The translations under genes and the position numbers were made by a program. This document shows positions 6,138 through 13,466 of a stretch of DNA of 64,000 bases, piece by piece. The stretch lies in the sequence record PP391266.1, one strand, 5' to 3'. Origin of the DNA: Escherichia phage PJNS034. Within the stretch, counting starts at the first letter, position 1; each line of letters starts with the position of its first letter. The notes below the pieces were generated by a model. The model made no database searches. It was not told the DNA's origin and saw only the letters and a program-made list of their open reading frames with translations.

Positions 6138-6215
6138 CTTGATGTAGCTCAGTTTGGTAGCAGCACTTGCTTTGGGAGCAAGGGGTCGAAGGTTCGAATC
6201 CTTCCATCAAGACCA
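6138..6215 (+). tRNA. tRNA-Pro (anticodon TGG)
   Basis: Manual cloverleaf: 7-bp acceptor CTTGATG/CATCAAG, anticodon arm CTTGC-TTTGGGA-GCAAG, T-arm GAAGG-TTCGAAT-CCTTC, 3' CCA. Confidence 0.7.
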
Positions 6216-6216
6216 A

Positions 6217-6298
6217 GTGGGATTGGCTGAGTGGTCGAAAGCACCTGACTGTAAATCAGGCATATCACGCGGTGGTTCGAATCCATCATCCCACACCA
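6217..6298 (+). tRNA. tRNA-Tyr (anticodon GTA)
   Basis: Acceptor GTGGGAT/ATCCCAC, anticodon arm CCTGA-CTGTAAA-TCAGG, long variable arm, TTCGAAT T-loop, CCA. Confidence 0.7.
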
Positions 6299-6300
6299 AA

Positions 6301-6377
6301 GCGTCACTAACTCAATTGGTTAGAGTAGCGGTCTTTTAAACCGCAGGTTCTGAGTTCGAGTCTCAGGTGGCGTACCA
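6301..6377 (+). tRNA. tRNA-Lys (anticodon TTT)
   Basis: Anticodon arm GCGGT-CTTTTAA-ACCGC, T-arm CTGAG-TTCGAGT-CTCAG, CCA. Confidence 0.7.
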
Positions 6378-6379
6378 AA

Positions 6380-6469
6380 GGAAGTTAGGGCTTTGTGGAA
6401 AGCAATCGGTCTTGAAAACCGACCCACTGTAGCGATATGGTGATGGTTCGACTCCATTAGCTTCCTCCA
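6380..6469 (+). tRNA. tRNA-Ser (anticodon TGA)
   Basis: Anticodon arm TCGGT-CTTGAAA-ACCGA, long variable arm, TTCGACT T-loop, CCA. Confidence 0.65.
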
Positions 6470-6471
6470 AT

Positions 6472-6548
6472 TGTTTCGTAGCTCAGTTGGTAAGAGCGTT
6501 CGGCTGATAACCGAAAGGTCACAAGTTCGAGTCTTGTCGAAACAACCA
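6472..6548 (+). tRNA. tRNA-Ile (anticodon GAT)
   Basis: Canonical cloverleaf: TGTTTCG/CGAAACA acceptor, GCTC-AGTTGGTAA-GAGC D-arm, TTCGG-CTGATAA-CCGAA, TTCGAGT T-loop, CCA. Confidence 0.8.
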
Positions 6549-6551
6549 AAT

Positions 6552-6640
6552 GACGGGTTGGCAGAGTTGGTTTATTGCAGCAGCTTGCTAAGTTGCCGAG
6601 TCGAAAGGCTCCGTGGGTTCGAATCCCACACCCGACGCCA
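6552..6640 (+). tRNA. tRNA-Ser (anticodon GCT)
   Basis: Anticodon arm GCAGC-TTGCTAA-GTTGC, long variable arm, GTGGG-TTCGAAT-CCCAC, CCA; one acceptor mismatch. Confidence 0.55.
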
Positions 6641-6641
6641 A

Positions 6642-6717
6642 GGACGATAAGCACATGTGGATGTGCGGCAGGCTGTTAACCTGATGGCAGTTGGTTCGAA
6701 TCCAACATCGTCCGCCA
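6642..6717 (+). tRNA. tRNA-Asn (anticodon GTT)
   Basis: Acceptor GGACGAT/ATCGTCC, loop CTGTTAA, T-arm GTTGG-TTCGAAT-CCAAC, CCA. Confidence 0.6.
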
Positions 6718-6719
6718 AT

Positions 6720-6794
6720 AGCGAGATAGTTCAGTGGTAGAATATCGGTTTCATACGCCGACCGTCGATGGTTCGATTCCATCTCTCGCTACCA
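6720..6794 (+). tRNA. tRNA-Met (anticodon CAT; elongator, initiator or lysidine-Ile not distinguishable)
   Basis: Acceptor AGCGAGA/TCTCGCT, anticodon arm TCGGT-TTCATAC-GCCGA, T-arm GATGG-TTCGATT-CCATC, CCA. Confidence 0.65.
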
Positions 6795-6810
6795 AACCTC
6801 TTTATCCGAT

Positions 6811-6882
6811 GGGAGTGTCCTTCTGGGAAGGATGTGGATTCCAACCCCACTAAGTAGAGTTCGATTCTTTACACTCCCGCCA
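6811..6882 (+). tRNA. tRNA, anticodon TCC (Gly) or alternatively CCA (Trp) depending on stem register
   Basis: Acceptor GGGAGTG/CACTCCC, loop region GGATTCCAACCCC, T-arm TAGAG-TTCGATT-CTTTA, CCA. Confidence 0.5.
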
Positions 6883-6889
6883 AATCCCT

Positions 6890-6966
6890 AGCCTTGTAGT
6901 GTAGTCTGGTTAGCACACGTGACTTTGACTCACGGAGCTTAGGTTCGAATCCTGACAGGGCTGCCA
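6890..6966 (+). tRNA. tRNA-Gln (anticodon TTG)
   Basis: Acceptor AGCCTTG/CAGGGCT, anticodon arm CGTGA-CTTTGAC-TCACG, T-arm TTAGG-TTCGAAT-CCTGA, CCA. Confidence 0.7.
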
Positions 6967-10178: not shown

Positions 10179-10487
10179 ATGAACATGATTTACTCTAACG
10201 CACATTACGCAATCTACTTCGTACCGAACGGTACTCCTGAGAAAGAACACGACTTTACCAAGCAGTTCACCATCGTGAATATGCACCTCGGTACTGTCGA
10301 AGCTCAGGTTGGTTCTTTCCCACATGCTGTACAGTATTGCGATGTGTTTGCTGCTGATTGGGAAGCACTGGTAATGAATGCAAAAGGCCAGTTCAATCCT
10401 GAGATTCAGGGCAACGATAATGGTGCTGATAAAGCCGAAGCAAAAGCTGGTCTGAAACTGGCAACTGTGGATGGTGAAAACGTATAA
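10179..10487 (+). CDS. hypothetical protein
   Basis: 102 aa ORF. Confidence 0.35.
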   Translation: MNMIYSNAHYAIYFVPNGTPEKEHDFTKQFTIVNMHLGTVEAQVGSFPHAVQYCDVFAADWEALVMNAKGQFNPEIQGNDNGADKAEAKAGLKLATVDGENV

Positions 10488-11512
10488 TGAGCAAAATCCC
10501 CGTATGTAAGACAACACGACCTACGGTGGATTTAGCACTCATTGACGCAGACGTACTGCGTTACGAATTAGGGGCTGTGCAACTAGACCATCCTTATATC
10601 AAGGGTGAGAAGGTTCCAGCCCCTTCCTCGTTTGTTGAGGGCTTAGTTCAAGACCGTATTGAAACTATTCTGGACAGAACTGGTGCGAAAGACTTCTTAT
10701 TGTTCCTCACAGGGCCGGGAAACTTCCGGTTTGATATTGCCAAACAGCAACCATATAAAGGCAACCGAGAAGATTTTGAAAAGCCTTTCCATTGGAAGAC
10801 TGTTGACCGTTACCTCCGAACCGTTTATCCCTCCAAAATCCGTGAAGCATTCGGTAACGAGGCAGATGATGAATTGGGCATTACTCAATTACGTTCTGTC
10901 CTCGCAGGGGATAAGGATAACACCTGCATCGCTTCTCGTGACAAAGACCTGAGAACAGTGGAAGGATGGCATTACTCTTGGGCATGTGGTGAAGACCAGC
11001 CTGAGAAACCACTACGTTACATCACTCAGCTTGAAGGTTATCGCTTCTTCTTCCAACAGATGCTTACTGGTGATAACACTGATAACATCATTGGTTGTGG
11101 TAAAAAGAAAGAAGTGATGTGGGGTGGTAAGCTCATGATGCGGCGTAAAGGCGTGGGCAAGAAAACTGCTGAGAAGTTACTTGCAGAGCTTGAGAACCAA
11201 CAACAAATGTACGATGTTGTTCGTGAACAGTATGTCGAAGTGTTTGAGGATGAAGCTGATACAGTGATGCTCGAACAAGCTCGGTTATTGTTTATTGGAC
11301 AGACTGAGAAACAACAATTTAAATGGCACTGGATTGAGGTGGTTGAATATGGAATTGGCTCCGAAGAAAGCGAAGTTGTGGAAGGAAAAGAACCTGAAGG
11401 GACGTTGGATGTTCCTGAGGAAAATCGACGGAGTGAGAGCACTTCGGAACCTAGACCCAACGATTCCAGCGAAGTATGTGAGCCGGAATGCGAAACCTCT
11501 GTACAATCTTGA
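10487..11512 (+). CDS. 5'-3' exonuclease (T7 gp6-like)
   Basis: 341 aa; LALIDADVLRY, YKGNRE, EADDELG, SRDKDLRTV, TGDNTDNIIGCG align to conserved blocks of T7 gene 6 exonuclease; C-terminal about 55 aa overlap the ligase gene. Confidence 0.7.
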   Translation: MSKIPVCKTTRPTVDLALIDADVLRYELGAVQLDHPYIKGEKVPAPSSFVEGLVQDRIETILDRTGAKDFLLFLTGPGNFRFDIAKQQPYKGNREDFEKPFHWKTVDRYLRTVYPSKIREAFGNEADDELGITQLRSVLAGDKDNTCIASRDKDLRTVEGWHYSWACGEDQPEKPLRYITQLEGYRFFFQQMLTGDNTDNIIGCGKKKEVMWGGKLMMRRKGVGKKTAEKLLAELENQQQMYDVVREQYVEVFEDEADTVMLEQARLLFIGQTEKQQFKWHWIEVVEYGIGSEESEVVEGKEPEGTLDVPEENRRSESTSEPRPNDSSEVCEPECETSVQS

Positions 11513-12047
11513 CCACTTGGAGTTTGATGATGCTGAAATCTTTAATCAAAATTGGGAAACTTCCGTTTCAATGGTGCGTACTCATTGTGCGGCTCCTGTT
11601 CCTGCTGATTGCGTTTATCGTCTTGGTGATGGTCAGACCGATTCACGATTATACTTGTTCACGGTGCAAGACCCAACCGAAGAGTTCATTCGGAAGCATC
11701 TGGAAGAAGCTCTGGCGAAAGGTGATGAAGGCTTAATATTAAGGGAGGCCGATGTTGACGACCCGAAATGGCTCAAAGTCAAAAATAAAGAAACTCATGA
11801 CGTGGTGGTTACGGGTTATCAGCCGGGCACCGGTAAGCATGAAGGACGGATGGGTGCTCTACTTACGACGAGAGGCAAAGTTGGTACAGGCTTCACAGAC
11901 AGTGAACGAGACTACTGGCAGCAACGCTGGGAAGAGGGTACTGTCGTAGGTGTTACGATTGAGGTGGAATGTATGGAGTTAACTTCCACTGGTAAATTCA
12001 GACACCCACGCTTTATCCGTGAACGCCTTGATAAAGATGGCGAATAG
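11349..12047 (+). CDS. ATP-dependent DNA ligase (compact)
   Basis: Motif I KIDGVR, motif IV-like DEGLILR, motif V WLKVK, motif VI FRHPRFIRERLDKD; ATG at 11349 with GAGGTGG RBS; only about 233 aa. Confidence 0.7.
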   Translation: MELAPKKAKLWKEKNLKGRWMFLRKIDGVRALRNLDPTIPAKYVSRNAKPLYNLDHLEFDDAEIFNQNWETSVSMVRTHCAAPVPADCVYRLGDGQTDSRLYLFTVQDPTEEFIRKHLEEALAKGDEGLILREADVDDPKWLKVKNKETHDVVVTGYQPGTGKHEGRMGALLTTRGKVGTGFTDSERDYWQQRWEEGTVVGVTIEVECMELTSTGKFRHPRFIRERLDKDGE

Positions 12048-12267
12048 CAGTATATTAACTAAGGTCACTTCGGTGGCCTTTTCTTTCATCTAACTATAGG
12101 CAAAACAATGAAACAGGCTGTATTTGATTTCGCTTCTCGCATGGTCGATAAGCTGACTGCTGATTATGACAAAGCAGAAACCTCTGACGTTGCAGAACGC
12201 ATCATGTCAGAACTCAAAAACTACATCAAAATGCGTGATGATGCACAACGTTCTCTGGAGAAAGCTA

Positions 12268-12807
12268 ATGCGTAAGGTTTATATTGCAGGTCATATGTTA
12301 ACTCGTGGTGCTCAGATGCAACGTGCTGAGGAACGTGAGCTGGTATCTTCTTTGGGTCATCAACTCTACAACCCAATGGACAACAAGGAAATTAACGACA
12401 AGAAGCTCCACAAGGACGATACAGGGCTGGCTGAACGAATCGTTAAGCAAGACACCGACGCTATTTTCTGGGCTGATACAGTGCTGATTGAGCCGCTTGC
12501 TGAGGCAAATGGCACTCTGGTTGAGTTAGGACAGATTAAAGGTATGAAAGACCTCGCCAAGAAGCTGATGGAGTTACCTGCAACAAATGAGATTGAGTTC
12601 GCTGACCAAGCAATTGAATTGCTCAAACGAATCCTAGACCAGAAGGTTGTTGCTCACTTCGAAGATATCCGACGTGTCGAAGGTATCACCGAAACAGGCG
12701 ACCGTCGCTCTCTTGGCATTAACCAGTATGTATATGGTACTGTCCTTGACCTGACAGATGGCAAAGGCTTCACTGAGTTTAAAGACTTGCCGGAGGCTCT
12801 TGCTTGA
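12268..12807 (+). CDS. nucleoside 2-deoxyribosyltransferase / Rcl-like N-glycosidase family protein
   Basis: N-terminal VYIAGHM and C-terminal NGTLVELG match the NDT-family Rossmann and catalytic-Glu motifs; ATG 12268 with GGAG RBS. Confidence 0.55.
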   Translation: MRKVYIAGHMLTRGAQMQRAEERELVSSLGHQLYNPMDNKEINDKKLHKDDTGLAERIVKQDTDAIFWADTVLIEPLAEANGTLVELGQIKGMKDLAKKLMELPATNEIEFADQAIELLKRILDQKVVAHFEDIRRVEGITETGDRRSLGINQYVYGTVLDLTDGKGFTEFKDLPEALA

Positions 12808-13466
12808 ACTGGAGATTAATATGGTCAGTCTTTGCCGTGCTATCCATTCTGTTTGGGTGCGTTGTTTCAAAAGCAAGTTACGAAGTAATGGCGACGTCCC
12901 TAGTGGGCGTCATGTTCGTGATAGGGGTAGCCTTCAAGAAAGCAAGTGCGAATCTTTTGGGGGCTATACTGTGCGCTATGCTTGGGTTGATGAGCTGGCA
13001 AGCTGGATACTACATGAACGCGATTATCAACATCTTCTTATTGCTACCACTCCAGTTATTAGCTTACGCCAATTGGACGACAGGGGTGTCGAAGCGAGAG
13101 CATCACAGGTACTTGGTGGAAACGGTCTGTCGCAAACGATTCTTGATTTACACATGTTGGCTAATTCCTCTCTTGGTAGCCGCATACTTCTCAGGCAGCC
13201 GTTTGTGGGTACACGATGCTGTGACAGCCTCACTTGTGATTGTCGCAACACTTCTCCTCATGTTCAATACCAAAGAGCAATGGCAATTCTGGATTCCATA
13301 CAATCTGGTAGAAGTCTTCATGTGGTTCATCGCAGCGAGTACAGCCCCTGAAATGCTTGCAATTATGTTCATGCGTATTGTATTCTTCATTAACAGTCTG
13401 ATTGGCTATTACGAATGGAGGAACGATGGCAATCCACGGACGCTACTTTCGACAGAAACCCGCTGA
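12804..13466 (+). CDS. PnuC-like (nicotinamide riboside/nucleoside transporter family) membrane protein
   Basis: 220 aa, multiple TM segments, AYANW...KREHH region resembles PnuC signature; start codon uncertain (TTG 12804 or downstream ATG). Confidence 0.4.
   Translation: MNWRLIWSVFAVLSILFGCVVSKASYEVMATSLVGVMFVIGVAFKKASANLLGAILCAMLGLMSWQAGYYMNAIINIFLLLPLQLLAYANWTTGVSKREHHRYLVETVCRKRFLIYTCWLIPLLVAAYFSGSRLWVHDAVTASLVIVATLLLMFNTKEQWQFWIPYNLVEVFMWFIAASTAPEMLAIMFMRIVFFINSLIGYYEWRNDGNPRTLLSTETR

What the first reader, a model, noticed from the sequence alone, without database searches (positions are those of the whole stretch)
10487..12047. gp6-like exonuclease and a very compact DNA ligase overlap out of frame by about 165 nt
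The ligase needs the motif I lysine (KIDGVR, around 11420), which lies about 90 nt before the exonuclease stop at 11512; the best ligase start (ATG 11349 with RBS) gives about 165 nt of overlap in a different frame. The exonuclease tail in the overlap is low-complexity and acidic. The ligase is only about 233 aa, with about 100 residues between motifs I and IV and a degenerate motif III (FDDAEIF), which would be among the smallest ATP-dependent ligases.
Basis: partly seen in the sequence, partly recalled or inferred. Interest (0 to 1): 0.5.

Follow-up and report, generated by a model that had tools for sequence, protein, structure and literature searches.

The report
Exonuclease tail overprinted on mini-ligase gene
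In this phage the floppy, acidic tail of a DNA-trimming enzyme is written in a second reading frame across the first 164 bases of the gene for an unusually small DNA-joining enzyme; the overlap is real and conserved, but both enzymes belong to known kinds.

Summary
A 341-aa FEN-type 5'-3' exonuclease (10487-11512) and a 232-aa ATP-dependent DNA ligase (ATG 11349-12047) overlap by 164 nt, with the ligase in the +1 frame. The same layout occurs in four independently sequenced phages, so a sequencing indel is excluded. Comparison fixes the ligase start at ATG 11349.

In the overlap, substitutions follow the ligase codon pattern, and the exonuclease tail is only 48-70% identical between genomes. 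The tail frame is still not a passive by-product:
- It stays open for 54 codons; 41 of 42 homologous ligase genes elsewhere stay open for at most 13 (median 4).
- Its net charge is -8 to -12, against about +4 expected from random synonymous codons.
- Ligase third positions before A-starting codons are about 80% G, only in the overlap and only in this clade.

Long tails are common in this exonuclease family and mostly acidic. AlphaFold2 predicts this one to be disordered.

The ligase is an ordinary member of a large phage family with a median length of 221 aa. Its catalytic residues are near-invariant and it folds like Chlorella virus ligase. I found no biochemical study of any member; published surveys stop at 250 aa. 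Verdict: real, moderately interesting, a new variant of known kinds.

The parts
10487..11512 (+). FEN-type 5'-3' exonuclease CDS, 341 aa
   Evidence: ORF. PHROG 107 'exonuclease' matches residues 14-284 (6e-61). Foldseek hits T5 D15 FEN, T4 RNase H and E. coli ExoIX. The product is 341 aa in all four clade genomes.
10487..11344 (+). Folded exonuclease core, residues 1 to about 286
   Evidence: The core is 92-95% identical among the four genomes. The family-wide conserved domain ends at F278/W280/W282. AF2 pLDDT is above 90 up to about residue 285.
11348..11509 (+). Exonuclease C-terminal tail, residues 288-341: acidic, predicted disordered, encoded in the -1 frame of the ligase 5' end
   Evidence: pLDDT is 42-51 with no secondary structure. 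Net charge is -12, against a null of +3.9 +/- 3.3. Identity between genomes is 48-70%. The tail lies outside the PHROG 107 match.
11336..11339 (+). Shine-Dalgarno-like GAGG for the ligase, inside the exonuclease coding sequence
   Evidence: Position. GAGGT is conserved in all four genomes, 9 nt upstream of the ATG.
11349..12047 (+). Compact ATP-dependent DNA ligase CDS, 232 aa
   Evidence: The start is fixed by a stop 2 codons upstream of the ATG in three of the four genomes. It is also fixed by synonymous changes at codons 3, 4, 8, 9 and 10 that preserve MELAPKKAKLWKEK.
11349..11512 (+). 164-nt dual-coding overlap (ligase frame = exonuclease frame +1)
11421..11438 (+). Ligase motif I KIDGVR (catalytic Lys25), inside the overlap
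   Evidence: Position. K25 is present in 148 of 148 aligned family sequences, D27 in 146 and G28 in 148. It aligns to KFDGIR of PDB 9fzx.
11523..11543 (+). Ligase motif III FDDAEIF (Glu63)
   Evidence: Position. E63 is invariant in 151 of 151 sequences.
11727..11783 (+). Ligase motifs IV (EGLILR) and V (WLKVK), joined by a shortened connector
   Evidence: Position. E127 is conserved in 150 of 151 sequences, G128 in 151, K143 in 142 and K145 in 139. Solved ligases carry a 9-residue insertion here relative to the family profile.
12000..12035 (+). Ligase motif VI RHPRFIRERLDK in the OB domain
   Evidence: Position. R226 and D228 are invariant in 151 of 151 sequences. Pfam PF14743 scores 41.7 bits against a cut-off of 28.
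12061..12080 (+). Terminator-like hairpin followed by a T-rich tract, 14 nt after the ligase stop
   Evidence: Consensus scan only. Function was not tested.

Best explanation
This is a genuine dual-coding junction in the replication module of a roughly 65-kb enterobacterial phage, probably Escherichia phage PJNS034.

The upstream gene encodes a flap-endonuclease-type 5'-3' exonuclease. Its folded domain ends at about residue 285. Translation then runs on for about 55 more codons, to TGA 11510-11512, through the 5' end of the next gene in another frame. This adds a disordered, strongly acidic C-terminal tail.

The downstream gene encodes a 232-aa two-domain (nucleotidyltransferase plus OB) ATP-dependent DNA ligase. 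It is initiated independently at ATG 11349 from its own GAGG, which sits inside the exonuclease coding sequence.

The ligase frame is ancestral and is under ordinary amino-acid-level purifying selection. The exonuclease frame is the overprinted one. It is selected only for staying open and for negative charge, and it achieves both through the ligase's synonymous third positions, which avoid T and prefer G before A-starting codons.

Inferred, not shown:
- Both proteins act together in Okazaki-fragment or nick processing, with the flap nuclease removing primers and the ligase sealing the nick.
- The acidic tail serves the role that separately encoded acidic tails serve in most relatives. A likely role is an electrostatic or protein-binding tether, by analogy with the acidic tails of T7 gp2.5 and gp4 (my own knowledge).
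- The ligase is catalytically active.
For: The layout is conserved in four independent genomes: the window, Pantoea phage TacPo2 and two Logan metagenome contigs. In each the exonuclease is 341 aa and the ligase ATG sits at exonuclease nt 863.

Variable sites in the overlap fall 14/6/28 by ligase codon position. The ligase-only region gives 38/23/77. By exonuclease position the overlap gives 28/14/6, the reverse of the exonuclease-only region at 30/18/120.

Ligase residues 1-54 are 85-94% identical between genomes. The exonuclease tail is 48-70% identical, against 92-95% for the core.

The tail frame is kept open.
- Synonymous resamplings leave it open in 0.015% of trials.
- Outgroup ligase genes are open for a median of 4 codons, with a maximum of 13 apart from one at 33.
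- T at third positions before AA/AG/GA codons is 1 of 15 in the overlap against 19 of 40 in the rest of the gene (p = 0.005 for the window).

The tail is kept acidic.
- Observed net charge is -8 to -12, against a constrained null of +3.9 to +4.9 (sd about 3.2); none of about 9,500 samples reached the observed value.
- G at third positions before A-starting codons is 11-14 of 15-17 in the overlap against 3-8 of about 30 elsewhere (p = 6e-6 to 1e-3 per genome).
- This bias is absent in the outgroups L002 and L003.

Acidic tails are a family trait. Of 95 homologues, 57 have tails of at least 20 aa, and 52 of those 57 are net negative. The tail here is predicted to be disordered.

The ligase looks like a working enzyme.
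- The AF2 model has pLDDT 93.6.
- Foldseek top hits are Lig E, Pmar-Lig and a Rhizobium phage ligase.
- Catalytic residues are invariant or nearly so across 151 sequences.
- A free-standing 232-aa orthologue with no overlap exists in L003.
Against: There are no expression or protein data, so translation of either frame across the overlap is inferred.

The four genomes are close relatives (77-87% nt identity in the overlap). They are not independent, and some of the codon bias could be inherited rather than maintained.

Variable sites in the overlap are no rarer than in the ligase-only region (48 of 164 against 138 of 524). Any constraint from the second frame is therefore weak and compositional.

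The nearest outgroup, L002, has no upstream exonuclease. It still shows a 33-codon open stretch and some depletion of T at third positions. Part of the signal may therefore predate the present arrangement or have another cause.

The tail lacks the C-terminal aromatic residue seen in about a quarter of the long tails of homologues.

Pfam's nucleotidyltransferase model PF01068 scores below its cut-off (13.7 against 26.2 bits), and a motif IIIa aromatic is not conserved. Activity is likely but unproven.
Confidence: 0.7

Rival explanations
1. The exonuclease tail is a neutral read-through by-product. A deletion or stop loss fused the exonuclease 3' end to the ligase start, the ribosome simply runs to the first stop in that frame, and the tail has no function.
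For: The tail's amino-acid sequence is poorly conserved, at 48-70% identity. Substitutions in the overlap follow only the ligase codon pattern, and site variability is not reduced. Many homologues do without a tail: 38 of 95 have fewer than 20 residues after the domain. The tail also lacks the aromatic tip.
Against: A 54-codon open frame is very unlikely by chance. Net charge lies 4-5 sd from the constrained null in all four genomes. The G-before-A bias at ligase synonymous sites is confined to the overlap and to this clade. Long tails in homologues are overwhelmingly acidic.
Confidence: 0.2
2. The overlap is an artefact. A sequencing or assembly indel near 11.3-11.5 kb shifts one frame, and the true genes abut.
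For: None was found. Long out-of-frame overlaps in phage annotations are often artefacts (general knowledge).
Against: Four independent assemblies have identical frame structure with no indel across the region. They come from two cultured phages and two unrelated sequencing runs. The ligase N-terminus MELAPKKAKLW and motif I lie upstream of the exonuclease stop, and they are conserved in free-standing homologues.
Confidence: 0.01
3. A programmed +1 ribosomal frameshift inside the overlap produces an exonuclease-ligase fusion protein, and the ligase is not initiated separately or not only so.
For: The ligase frame is +1 relative to the exonuclease frame, and a flap nuclease fused to a ligase would make functional sense.
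Against: A conserved ATG with GAGGT nine nucleotides upstream is present in all four genomes, and the first 14 ligase residues are invariant. Homologues are free-standing proteins of the same length. Reading the sequence, I saw no RF2-, Ty- or antizyme-like +1 shift site between 11349 and 11420. There is no stable or covarying RNA structure (z = 0.05, 0 compensatory pairs).
Confidence: 0.02
4. The 232-aa protein is not a nick-sealing DNA ligase. It could be an inactive relic, or a nucleotidyltransferase with another substrate, such as RNA or a DNA-RNA hybrid.
For: Pfam PF01068 is below its cut-off. The motif IIIa aromatic and motif I Arg30 are variable in the family. The connector between motifs IV and V is 9 residues shorter than in all solved ligases. 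I found no report of any member being assayed.
Confidence: 0.07

Closest known systems
Putative DNA ligases of Vibrio phage ICP2 (gp64, 229 aa), Escherichia phage ST32 (gp45, 251 aa), phiEcoM-GJ1 and related phages
   Same: They belong to the same protein family: 36-49% identity over more than 90% of the length. They share the compact size and lie in the same replication module, a few genes downstream of a phiEco32-type exonuclease.
   Different: They are encoded with only the usual few-nucleotide overlaps, and no exonuclease tail is overprinted on them. ST32 gp45 is annotated 'No experimental evidence'.
Chlorella virus PBCV-1 DNA ligase (298 aa, PDB 2q2t)
   Different: The window protein is 66 residues shorter and only 23% identical. 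From my own knowledge of PBCV-1 ligase it should lack the OB-domain latch, but this was not mapped residue by residue here.
Lig E minimal bacterial ligases (Psy-Lig 4d05, 257 aa; Ame-Lig 6gdr; N. gonorrhoeae 8u6x)
   Same: These are the top Foldseek hits, and profile matches reach 5e-17 to 1e-13. They share the PF14743-type OB domain and lack both a latch and a DNA-binding domain. Psy-Lig was described as the smallest ligase studied structurally, at 257 residues (PMC4220977).
   Different: Lig E proteins carry a periplasmic leader and are bacterial accessory enzymes (PMC4220977). The phage protein has 24 residues before the catalytic Lys and no hydrophobic leader. It is 25 residues shorter than Psy-Lig, and family members go down to about 205 aa. 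Solved ligases have 9 extra residues between motifs IV and V.
Phage flap endonucleases and 5'-3' exonucleases (T5 D15, T4 RNase H, T7 gp6, phiEco32-type exonuclease)
   Same: They share the FEN fold and invariant acidic active-site residues: D20, D22, E125, D127, D128, D152, D154, D196 and D199. PHROG 107 matches. The DNA is 66-78% identical to the exonuclease genes of phage 7-11, GAP52 and phiEco32-like phages over the conserved core.
   Different: The window protein carries a 55-aa acidic disordered tail. PhiEco32-type homologues end 5-6 residues after the conserved W-x-W. Pfam 5_3_exonuc models score below their cut-offs.
Acidic C-terminal tails of phage replication proteins (T7 gp2.5 and gp4, T4 gp32, bacterial SSB C-terminus)
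   Same: All are disordered, strongly acidic C-terminal extensions on a replication protein. In about a quarter of the exonuclease homologues with long tails, the tail also ends in an aromatic residue, often as P-x-F. The comparison itself rests on my own knowledge.
   Different: No binding partner is known here. The tail of the window clade lacks the terminal aromatic residue. The resemblance is compositional and was not tested.
Overprinted (out-of-frame overlapping) genes of viruses
   Same: An ancestral frame and a younger frame share the same DNA, and the younger product is disordered, as is commonly reported for overprinted viral genes (my own knowledge).
   Different: Here the overprint is not a new gene but a C-terminal extension of an existing enzyme. 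It appears to be selected for composition rather than sequence. A 164-nt overlap is long for a tailed dsDNA phage, where overlaps of 1-4 nt dominate, as seen in 28 of 42 control loci.

Membership tests
ATP-dependent DNA ligase (covalent nucleotidyltransferase superfamily) | Motif I KxDGxR with the adenylated lysine | tested here: met
   KIDGVR at residues 25-30. K is present in 148 of 148 aligned sequences, D in 146 and G in 148. The final R is variable: R 89, Q 33. The motif aligns to motif I of PDB 9fzx and 6ras.
ATP-dependent DNA ligase (covalent nucleotidyltransferase superfamily) | Motif III glutamate | tested here: met
   E63 in FDDAEIF is invariant in 151 of 151 sequences. The flanking residues vary, so the usual 'DGE' reads D-A-E here and x-Y-E in most members.
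ATP-dependent DNA ligase (covalent nucleotidyltransferase superfamily) | Motif IIIa aromatic residue that stacks on adenine | tested here: inconclusive
   The strand LYLFTV (residues 101-106) has Y102 and F104. Across the family these columns are V/I/Y/F and G/C/T/A, and no residue-level structural superposition was available.
ATP-dependent DNA ligase (covalent nucleotidyltransferase superfamily) | Motif IV (EGhhh[K/R]) and motif V (hhKhK) | tested here: met
   EGLILR is at 127-132 and WLKVK at 141-145. E127 is conserved in 150 of 151 sequences, G128 in 151, K143 in 142 (with 9 R) and K145 in 139. The connector is 9 residues shorter than in 9fzx, 6rau and 8u6x.
ATP-dependent DNA ligase (covalent nucleotidyltransferase superfamily) | C-terminal OB domain carrying motif VI | tested here: met
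   Pfam PF14743 scores 41.7 bits (cut-off 28) and PF04679 scores 34.1 bits (cut-off 27.5). In RHPRFIRERLDK, R226 and D228 are invariant.
ATP-dependent DNA ligase (covalent nucleotidyltransferase superfamily) | Two-domain NTase plus OB fold | tested here: met
ATP-dependent DNA ligase (covalent nucleotidyltransferase superfamily) | Match to Pfam PF01068 (DNA_ligase_A_M) at the gathering score | tested here: not met
   13.7 bits against a cut-off of 26.2, E = 0.049. The NTase domain is too trimmed and divergent for the curated model.
ATP-dependent DNA ligase (covalent nucleotidyltransferase superfamily) | ATP-dependent self-adenylation and nick sealing | not testable with these tools
   This needs purified protein. 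I found no report on any family member.
Lig E subgroup | N-terminal periplasmic leader; bacterial chromosomal accessory gene | tested here: not met
   The N-terminus MELAPKKAKLWKEKNLKGRWMFLRK is charged and has no hydrophobic segment. The gene is phage-borne. No signal-peptide predictor was run.
FEN / 5'-3' exonuclease family (T5 D15, T4 RNase H, Pol I 5' nuclease; T7 gp6 by annotation) | FEN fold: PIN-like nuclease core with a helix-hairpin-helix region | tested here: met
   Foldseek matches T5 D15, T4 RNase H, ExoIX and the Taq polymerase N-terminal domain at E around 1e-7 with probability 1.00. The AF2 core has pLDDT above 90.
FEN / 5'-3' exonuclease family (T5 D15, T4 RNase H, Pol I 5' nuclease; T7 gp6 by annotation) | Clusters of conserved metal-binding carboxylates | tested here: met
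   D20, D22, E125, D127, D128, D152, D154, D196 and D199 are invariant in 18 diverse homologues. Their assignment to metal sites is by analogy, not by superposition.
FEN / 5'-3' exonuclease family (T5 D15, T4 RNase H, Pol I 5' nuclease; T7 gp6 by annotation) | Pfam 5_3_exonuc_N / 5_3_exonuc at the gathering score | tested here: not met
   20.3 bits against 34.3, and 23.2 bits against 40. PHROG 107 'exonuclease' matches strongly (6e-61).
FEN / 5'-3' exonuclease family (T5 D15, T4 RNase H, Pol I 5' nuclease; T7 gp6 by annotation) | Specific orthology to T7 gp6 | not tested
   No direct comparison with T7 gp6 was made. The nearest annotated relatives are the exonucleases of phage 7-11, GAP52 and phiEco32-like phages.
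Functional out-of-frame overlapping genes (overprinting) | Both frames open and conserved in relatives | tested here: met
   The frame structure is identical in four genomes.
Functional out-of-frame overlapping genes (overprinting) | Selection detectable in both frames | tested here: inconclusive
   The ligase frame shows clear amino-acid-level constraint. The exonuclease frame shows none at the amino-acid level, but strong signals for openness and for negative charge. Only four related genomes were available, and the outgroup L002 shows a partial signal.
Functional out-of-frame overlapping genes (overprinting) | Both products translated across the overlap | not testable with these tools
   This needs proteomics or ribosome profiling.

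The most novel reading that the evidence does not exclude
The exonuclease's acidic tail is a functional module that this clade re-created by overprinting. After the ancestral, separately encoded tail was lost, selection used only the 'silent' third positions of the ligase's first 54 codons to spell out an open, negatively charged, disordered peptide. This would be coding for composition rather than sequence. The partner gene would also be an active member of the smallest known family of DNA ligases (about 205-235 aa), which published surveys of minimal ligases excluded with their 250-aa lower limit.
Probability: 0.45. Interest if true: 0.55.

Novelty: new variant of a known kind. Interest (0 to 1): 0.42.

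Why it matters
**Annotation.** The overlap makes gene callers truncate the ligase. It was called as a 158-aa 'hypothetical protein' in the deposited PJNS034 record, and as 157 and 194 aa in two metagenome contigs. All three calls lose the catalytic lysine, so phages of this clade look as if they have no ligase.

**Enzymology and biotechnology.** The protein belongs to a large family: at least 259 clusters at 50% identity, with a median length of 221 aa. These are smaller than the smallest structurally studied ligase (Psy-Lig, 257 aa), and the 250-370-aa survey of minimal ligases did not cover them. If active, they would lower the known size limit for a nick-sealing scaffold.

**Evolution.** The junction is a clean and genetically tractable case of a second frame selected for charge and openness only. 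Single ligase-silent mutations can truncate or recharge the tail.

Tried and rejected
- **Alternative ligase starts.** The TTG 11295 extension has a stop two codons before the ATG in three of the four genomes. ATG 11409 is Thr or Ala in two genomes and would leave only 4 residues before the catalytic Lys. Family members have 19-28. Both starts are rejected.
- **Sequencing error.** Rejected.
- **RNA structure around the ligase start that could gate translation.** The minimum free energy is no better than shuffled sequence (z = 0.05). The consensus fold is weak, with no compensatory pairs. Nothing was found.
- **A +1 frameshift fusion.** Reading the sequence, I saw no RF2-, Ty- or antizyme-like +1 shift site, and a stop lies just upstream of the ATG in the ligase frame. 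Judged unlikely.
- **Whether the 366-aa ligase next to the exonuclease in L006 is the ancestor of the compact one.** It shows only 26% identity over the C-terminal part (E = 0.013). This points to a different ligase type in the same slot rather than a deletion series.
- **Ligase remnants under the long exonuclease tails of L092 and L009.** tblastn found none.
- **Sequence search of the exonuclease against PDB.** It gave only weak RuvA helix-hairpin-helix hits. The fold search was needed.
- **The test 'G positions encoding D/E are invariant'.** Discarded as circular.
- **Literature searches** for any characterised ligase under 250 aa, or for PJNS034 or TacPo2. No relevant paper was found in the held library.
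Full report
**1. What is in the sequence**

Two + strand ORFs overlap out of frame.
- The first runs 10487..11512 and encodes 341 aa.
- The second is open from 11295, has ATG at 11349 and stops at 12047, giving 232 aa from the ATG.
- GAGG lies at 11336-11339, 9 nt upstream of the ATG.
- The overlap 11349-11512 is 164 nt. The ligase frame is the exonuclease frame +1.
- The motif I lysine codon (11421-11423) lies upstream of the exonuclease stop (11510-11512).

**2. Identity of the two proteins**

The upstream protein is a flap-endonuclease-type 5'-3' exonuclease.
- It matches PHROG 107 'exonuclease' over residues 14-284.
- It has weak, sub-threshold Pfam 5'-3' exonuclease hits.
- An AF2 model built on 18 homologues has a confident core. 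That core matches T5 D15 flap endonuclease, T4 RNase H and E. coli ExoIX.
- Nine acidic residues typical of FEN active sites are invariant in the homologues.

The downstream protein is an ATP-dependent DNA ligase.
- It matches Pfam DNA_ligase_OB_2 and DNA_ligase_A_C above their cut-offs, but the nucleotidyltransferase model PF01068 only at E = 0.049.
- It matches PHROG 114 'ATP-dependent DNA ligase'.
- Its closest solved relatives by sequence are a Rhizobium phage ligase (9fzx), Pmar-Lig and Lig E.
- An AF2 model from 67 family members has mean pLDDT 93.6.

**3. The overlap is not an artefact, and the ligase starts at ATG 11349**

The nearest cultured relative is Pantoea phage TacPo2, 87.6% identical in DNA over the two genes. 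It is annotated with the same pair: a 341-aa and a 231-aa protein overlapping by 164 nt. Two unrelated metagenome contigs, L007 and L008, have the same structure.

Three observations fix the start.
- In three of the four genomes, a stop in the ligase frame lies two codons before the ATG.
- GAGGT upstream of the ATG is conserved.
- The first 14 ligase residues are invariant although codons 3, 4, 8, 9 and 10 carry synonymous changes.

The downstream ATG 11409 is not conserved. A relative with a 73% identical ligase (L002) has the same N-terminus but a different upstream sequence, with stops in all three frames. A relative with a 55% identical ligase (L003) encodes a free-standing 232-aa protein after an intein-containing methylase gene. 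In 45 loci the catalytic lysine lies 19-28 residues after the best-placed start codon.

The ligase N-terminus is therefore ancestral, and the overlap cannot be shorter than 164 nt.

The window is probably Escherichia phage PJNS034. That phage has a 158-aa 'hypothetical protein' that is 100% identical to the C-terminal two thirds of the ligase.

**4. How the overlap evolves**

Among the four genomes, variable sites in the overlap fall 14/6/28 by ligase codon position. This matches the ligase-only region (38/23/77). By exonuclease codon position the counts are 28/14/6, the opposite of the exonuclease-only region (30/18/120).

Pairwise, ligase residues 1-54 are 85-94% identical. The exonuclease tail is 48-70% identical, while the exonuclease core is 92-95% identical. 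At the amino-acid level only the ligase frame is constrained.

Even so, the exonuclease frame is not a passive passenger.

(a) It is kept open.
- With the ligase protein fixed and codons drawn from the window's codon usage, the frame stays open for 54 codons in 0.015% of trials. The median first stop falls at codon 8.
- In the same frame through the rest of the ligase gene there are 19 stops in 178 codons, giving P of about 0.002 for 54 open codons.
- In 42 homologous ligase genes from other phages the frame is open for a median of 4 codons. The maximum is 13, apart from L002 at 33.
- T at third positions before AA/AG/GA-starting codons occurs once in 15 sites in the overlap, and that one site is the real stop. 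In the rest of the gene it occurs at 19 of 40 sites (p = 0.005 in the window and 0.001-0.02 in the other three genomes).

(b) It is kept acidic.
- A Gibbs sampler fixed the ligase protein and forbade stops. It gave a tail net charge of +3.9 to +4.9 (sd about 3.2).
- The observed values are -12, -8, -9 and -10. None of about 9,500 samples per genome reached them.

(c) The mechanism is visible in the codons.
- Ligase third positions before A-starting codons are G in 11-14 of 15-17 cases in the overlap, which makes GAx (Asp or Glu) in the exonuclease frame. Elsewhere in the gene they are G in 3-8 of about 30 cases (p = 6e-6 to 1e-3).
- The outgroups L002 and L003 show no such bias.

**5. Why an acidic tail**

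The conserved exonuclease domain ends at F278-x-W280-x-W282. The tail is absent from the PHROG profile match and is predicted to be disordered, with pLDDT 42-51.

Of 95 homologues in which the end-of-domain motif could be located:
- 38 stop within 20 residues, among them the phiEco32-type proteins;
- 57 carry tails of 20-100 aa that cannot be aligned with one another;
- 52 of those 57 tails are net negative, with a mean charge of -6.5;
- 15 of the 57 end in an aromatic residue, often as P-x-F(G), where about 7 would be expected.

In those phages the tail is encoded without a long overlap, for example in L003.

My inference is that an acidic C-terminal tail is a recurrent functional accessory of this nuclease. 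By analogy with the acidic tails of T7 gp2.5 and gp4 or of SSB, it may act as a tether or a DNA mimic; this analogy rests on my own knowledge and was not tested. On this view the PJNS034/TacPo2 clade encodes its version inside the ligase gene. The clade's tail lacks the aromatic tip, which weakens the analogy.

The most economical history has three steps. A rearrangement placed the end of the exonuclease core next to the ligase start. The exonuclease lost its own stop. Stops in the new frame were then removed, and G-ending codons favoured, under selection for a long acidic tail. This history is an inference.

**6. The ligase as a compact enzyme**

The size is a family property.
- A profile search of 1.84 billion representatives found 259 clusters at E of 1e-30 or better. 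The best 150 have a median length of 221 aa, and 140 of them are under 250 aa.
- Across 151 aligned sequences, K25, G28, E63, G128, R226 and D228 are invariant. D27, E127, K143, K145, R218 and K229 are nearly so.
- Motif III is therefore not degenerate in the sense that matters. Motif I Arg30 and a motif IIIa aromatic are variable.
- Relative to solved ligases, the family lacks 9 residues between motifs IV and V and several residues in OB-domain loops.

Family members are already annotated as '(putative) DNA ligase' in Vibrio phage ICP2 (229 aa), Escherichia phage ST32 (251 aa, 'No experimental evidence') and Erwinia phage Y2, among others. In all, 170 phage records hold a match.

In the literature library I found no biochemical or structural study of any member.
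- The sequence-similarity survey of minimal ligases covered only 250-370 aa (PMC8455567).
- Psy-Lig, at 257 residues, was described as the smallest ligase studied structurally (PMC4220977).

'Among the smallest ATP-dependent ligases' is correct, but this gene is an ordinary member of that family.

**7. Context**

The pair sits in a replication and nucleotide-metabolism module. It is followed by a terminator-like hairpin, a nucleoside 2-deoxyribosyltransferase, a PnuC-like transporter and an endonuclease I homologue. A cluster of 10 tRNA genes lies upstream.

In relatives the slot after the exonuclease varies.
- It can hold an unrelated T7-type ligase of 328-366 aa. In L093 that ligase is itself overlapped by 50 nt of the exonuclease's acidic tail, as called.
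- It can hold no ligase at all, as in L009.

**8. Limits**

- Nothing here shows translation of either frame.
- The four overlapping genomes are close relatives, so their tests are not independent.
- The null models depend on codon usage. L002 shows a partial depletion of T at third positions.
- The function of the tail and the activity of the ligase are inferred.

**9. Verdict**

The new element is the evidence that the overprinted tail is maintained for openness and charge through the ligase's synonymous sites.

Both enzymes are of known kinds, and overlapping genes are a known phenomenon. I rate the finding a new variant of a known kind, of moderate interest.

Noticed in passing
window 11349-12047; L007 4085-4558; L008 2035-2619: Gene callers truncate the ligase because of the overlap. 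It appears as a 158-aa 'hypothetical protein' in Escherichia phage PJNS034 (P0004, 100% identical), as 157 aa in L007 and as 194 aa in L008. All three lack motif I. Only TacPo2 has the full 231-aa call, and it carries no functional name there.
   Followed up: yes
proteins P0121-P0240 (exonuclease homologues): Long C-terminal tails after the conserved F-x-W-x-W are common (57 of 95) and nearly always acidic (52 of 57). They often end in an aromatic residue within a P-x-F(G)-like tip, for example TSIPSFG, TPIPVFG, DSPF and EHRPF. This recalls the SSB C-terminus and the tails of T7 gp2.5 and gp4. The enrichment is 15 of 57 against about 7 expected.
   Followed up: partly
L093 3001-4966: In a distant relative the exonuclease's 56-aa acidic tail overlaps a T7-type 328-aa ligase gene by 50 nt as called. 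Exonuclease-ligase junction overlaps may therefore have arisen more than once. The true ligase start there was not checked.
   Followed up: no
L092 about 1230-1800: The 76-aa tail of a 376-aa exonuclease homologue overlaps a long uncalled ORF in another frame. That ORF is open for at least 190 codons, and the region 1441-1792 has no called gene. It shows no similarity to the ligase.
   Followed up: partly
L003 1995-3959 and L005 1995-3959: A 654-aa DNA cytosine methylase carrying an intein (Hint and LAGLIDADG domains) sits between the exonuclease and the compact ligase in a relative.
   Followed up: no
L006 5072-6172; L009 4001-5329: The slot after the exonuclease is variable. It holds an unrelated 366-aa T7-type ligase in L006 (26% identity over the C-terminal part only) and no ligase in L009. 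The downstream deoxyribosyltransferase-PnuC synteny is kept in both.
   Followed up: partly
window 6138-6966: A cluster of 10 tRNA genes on the + strand: Pro, Tyr, Lys, Ser, Ile, Ser, Asn, Met, Trp and Gln. TacPo2 has 11 at the same place, with a partly different set.
   Followed up: no
window 12268-13466: A nucleoside 2-deoxyribosyltransferase (PHROG 1817) and a PnuC-like nicotinamide mononucleotide transporter (PHROG 1880) follow the ligase. These auxiliary nucleotide/NAD-related genes are conserved in relatives.
   Followed up: no
window 13402-13466: The PnuC-like gene (12804-13466) and the endonuclease I-like gene overlap by 41 nt if the start is as annotated in TacPo2 (window 13426), or by 65 nt from TTG 13402. 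This is a second longer-than-usual overlap in the same module.
   Followed up: no
window 12061-12080: A terminator-like hairpin (8-bp stem, TTCG loop, T-rich tail) lies 14 nt after the ligase stop. A promoter-like site at 12028-12056 straddles the ligase stop. Both are consensus matches only, and neither class of site is more frequent than in shuffled sequence.
   Followed up: no
window 11349-11512, both frames: The two products of the overlap carry opposite charge. Ligase residues 1-54 have 14 K/R against 4 D/E, and the exonuclease tail has 16 D/E against 4 K/R. Whether the tail contacts the ligase's basic N-terminal or DNA-binding face is unknown.
   Followed up: no
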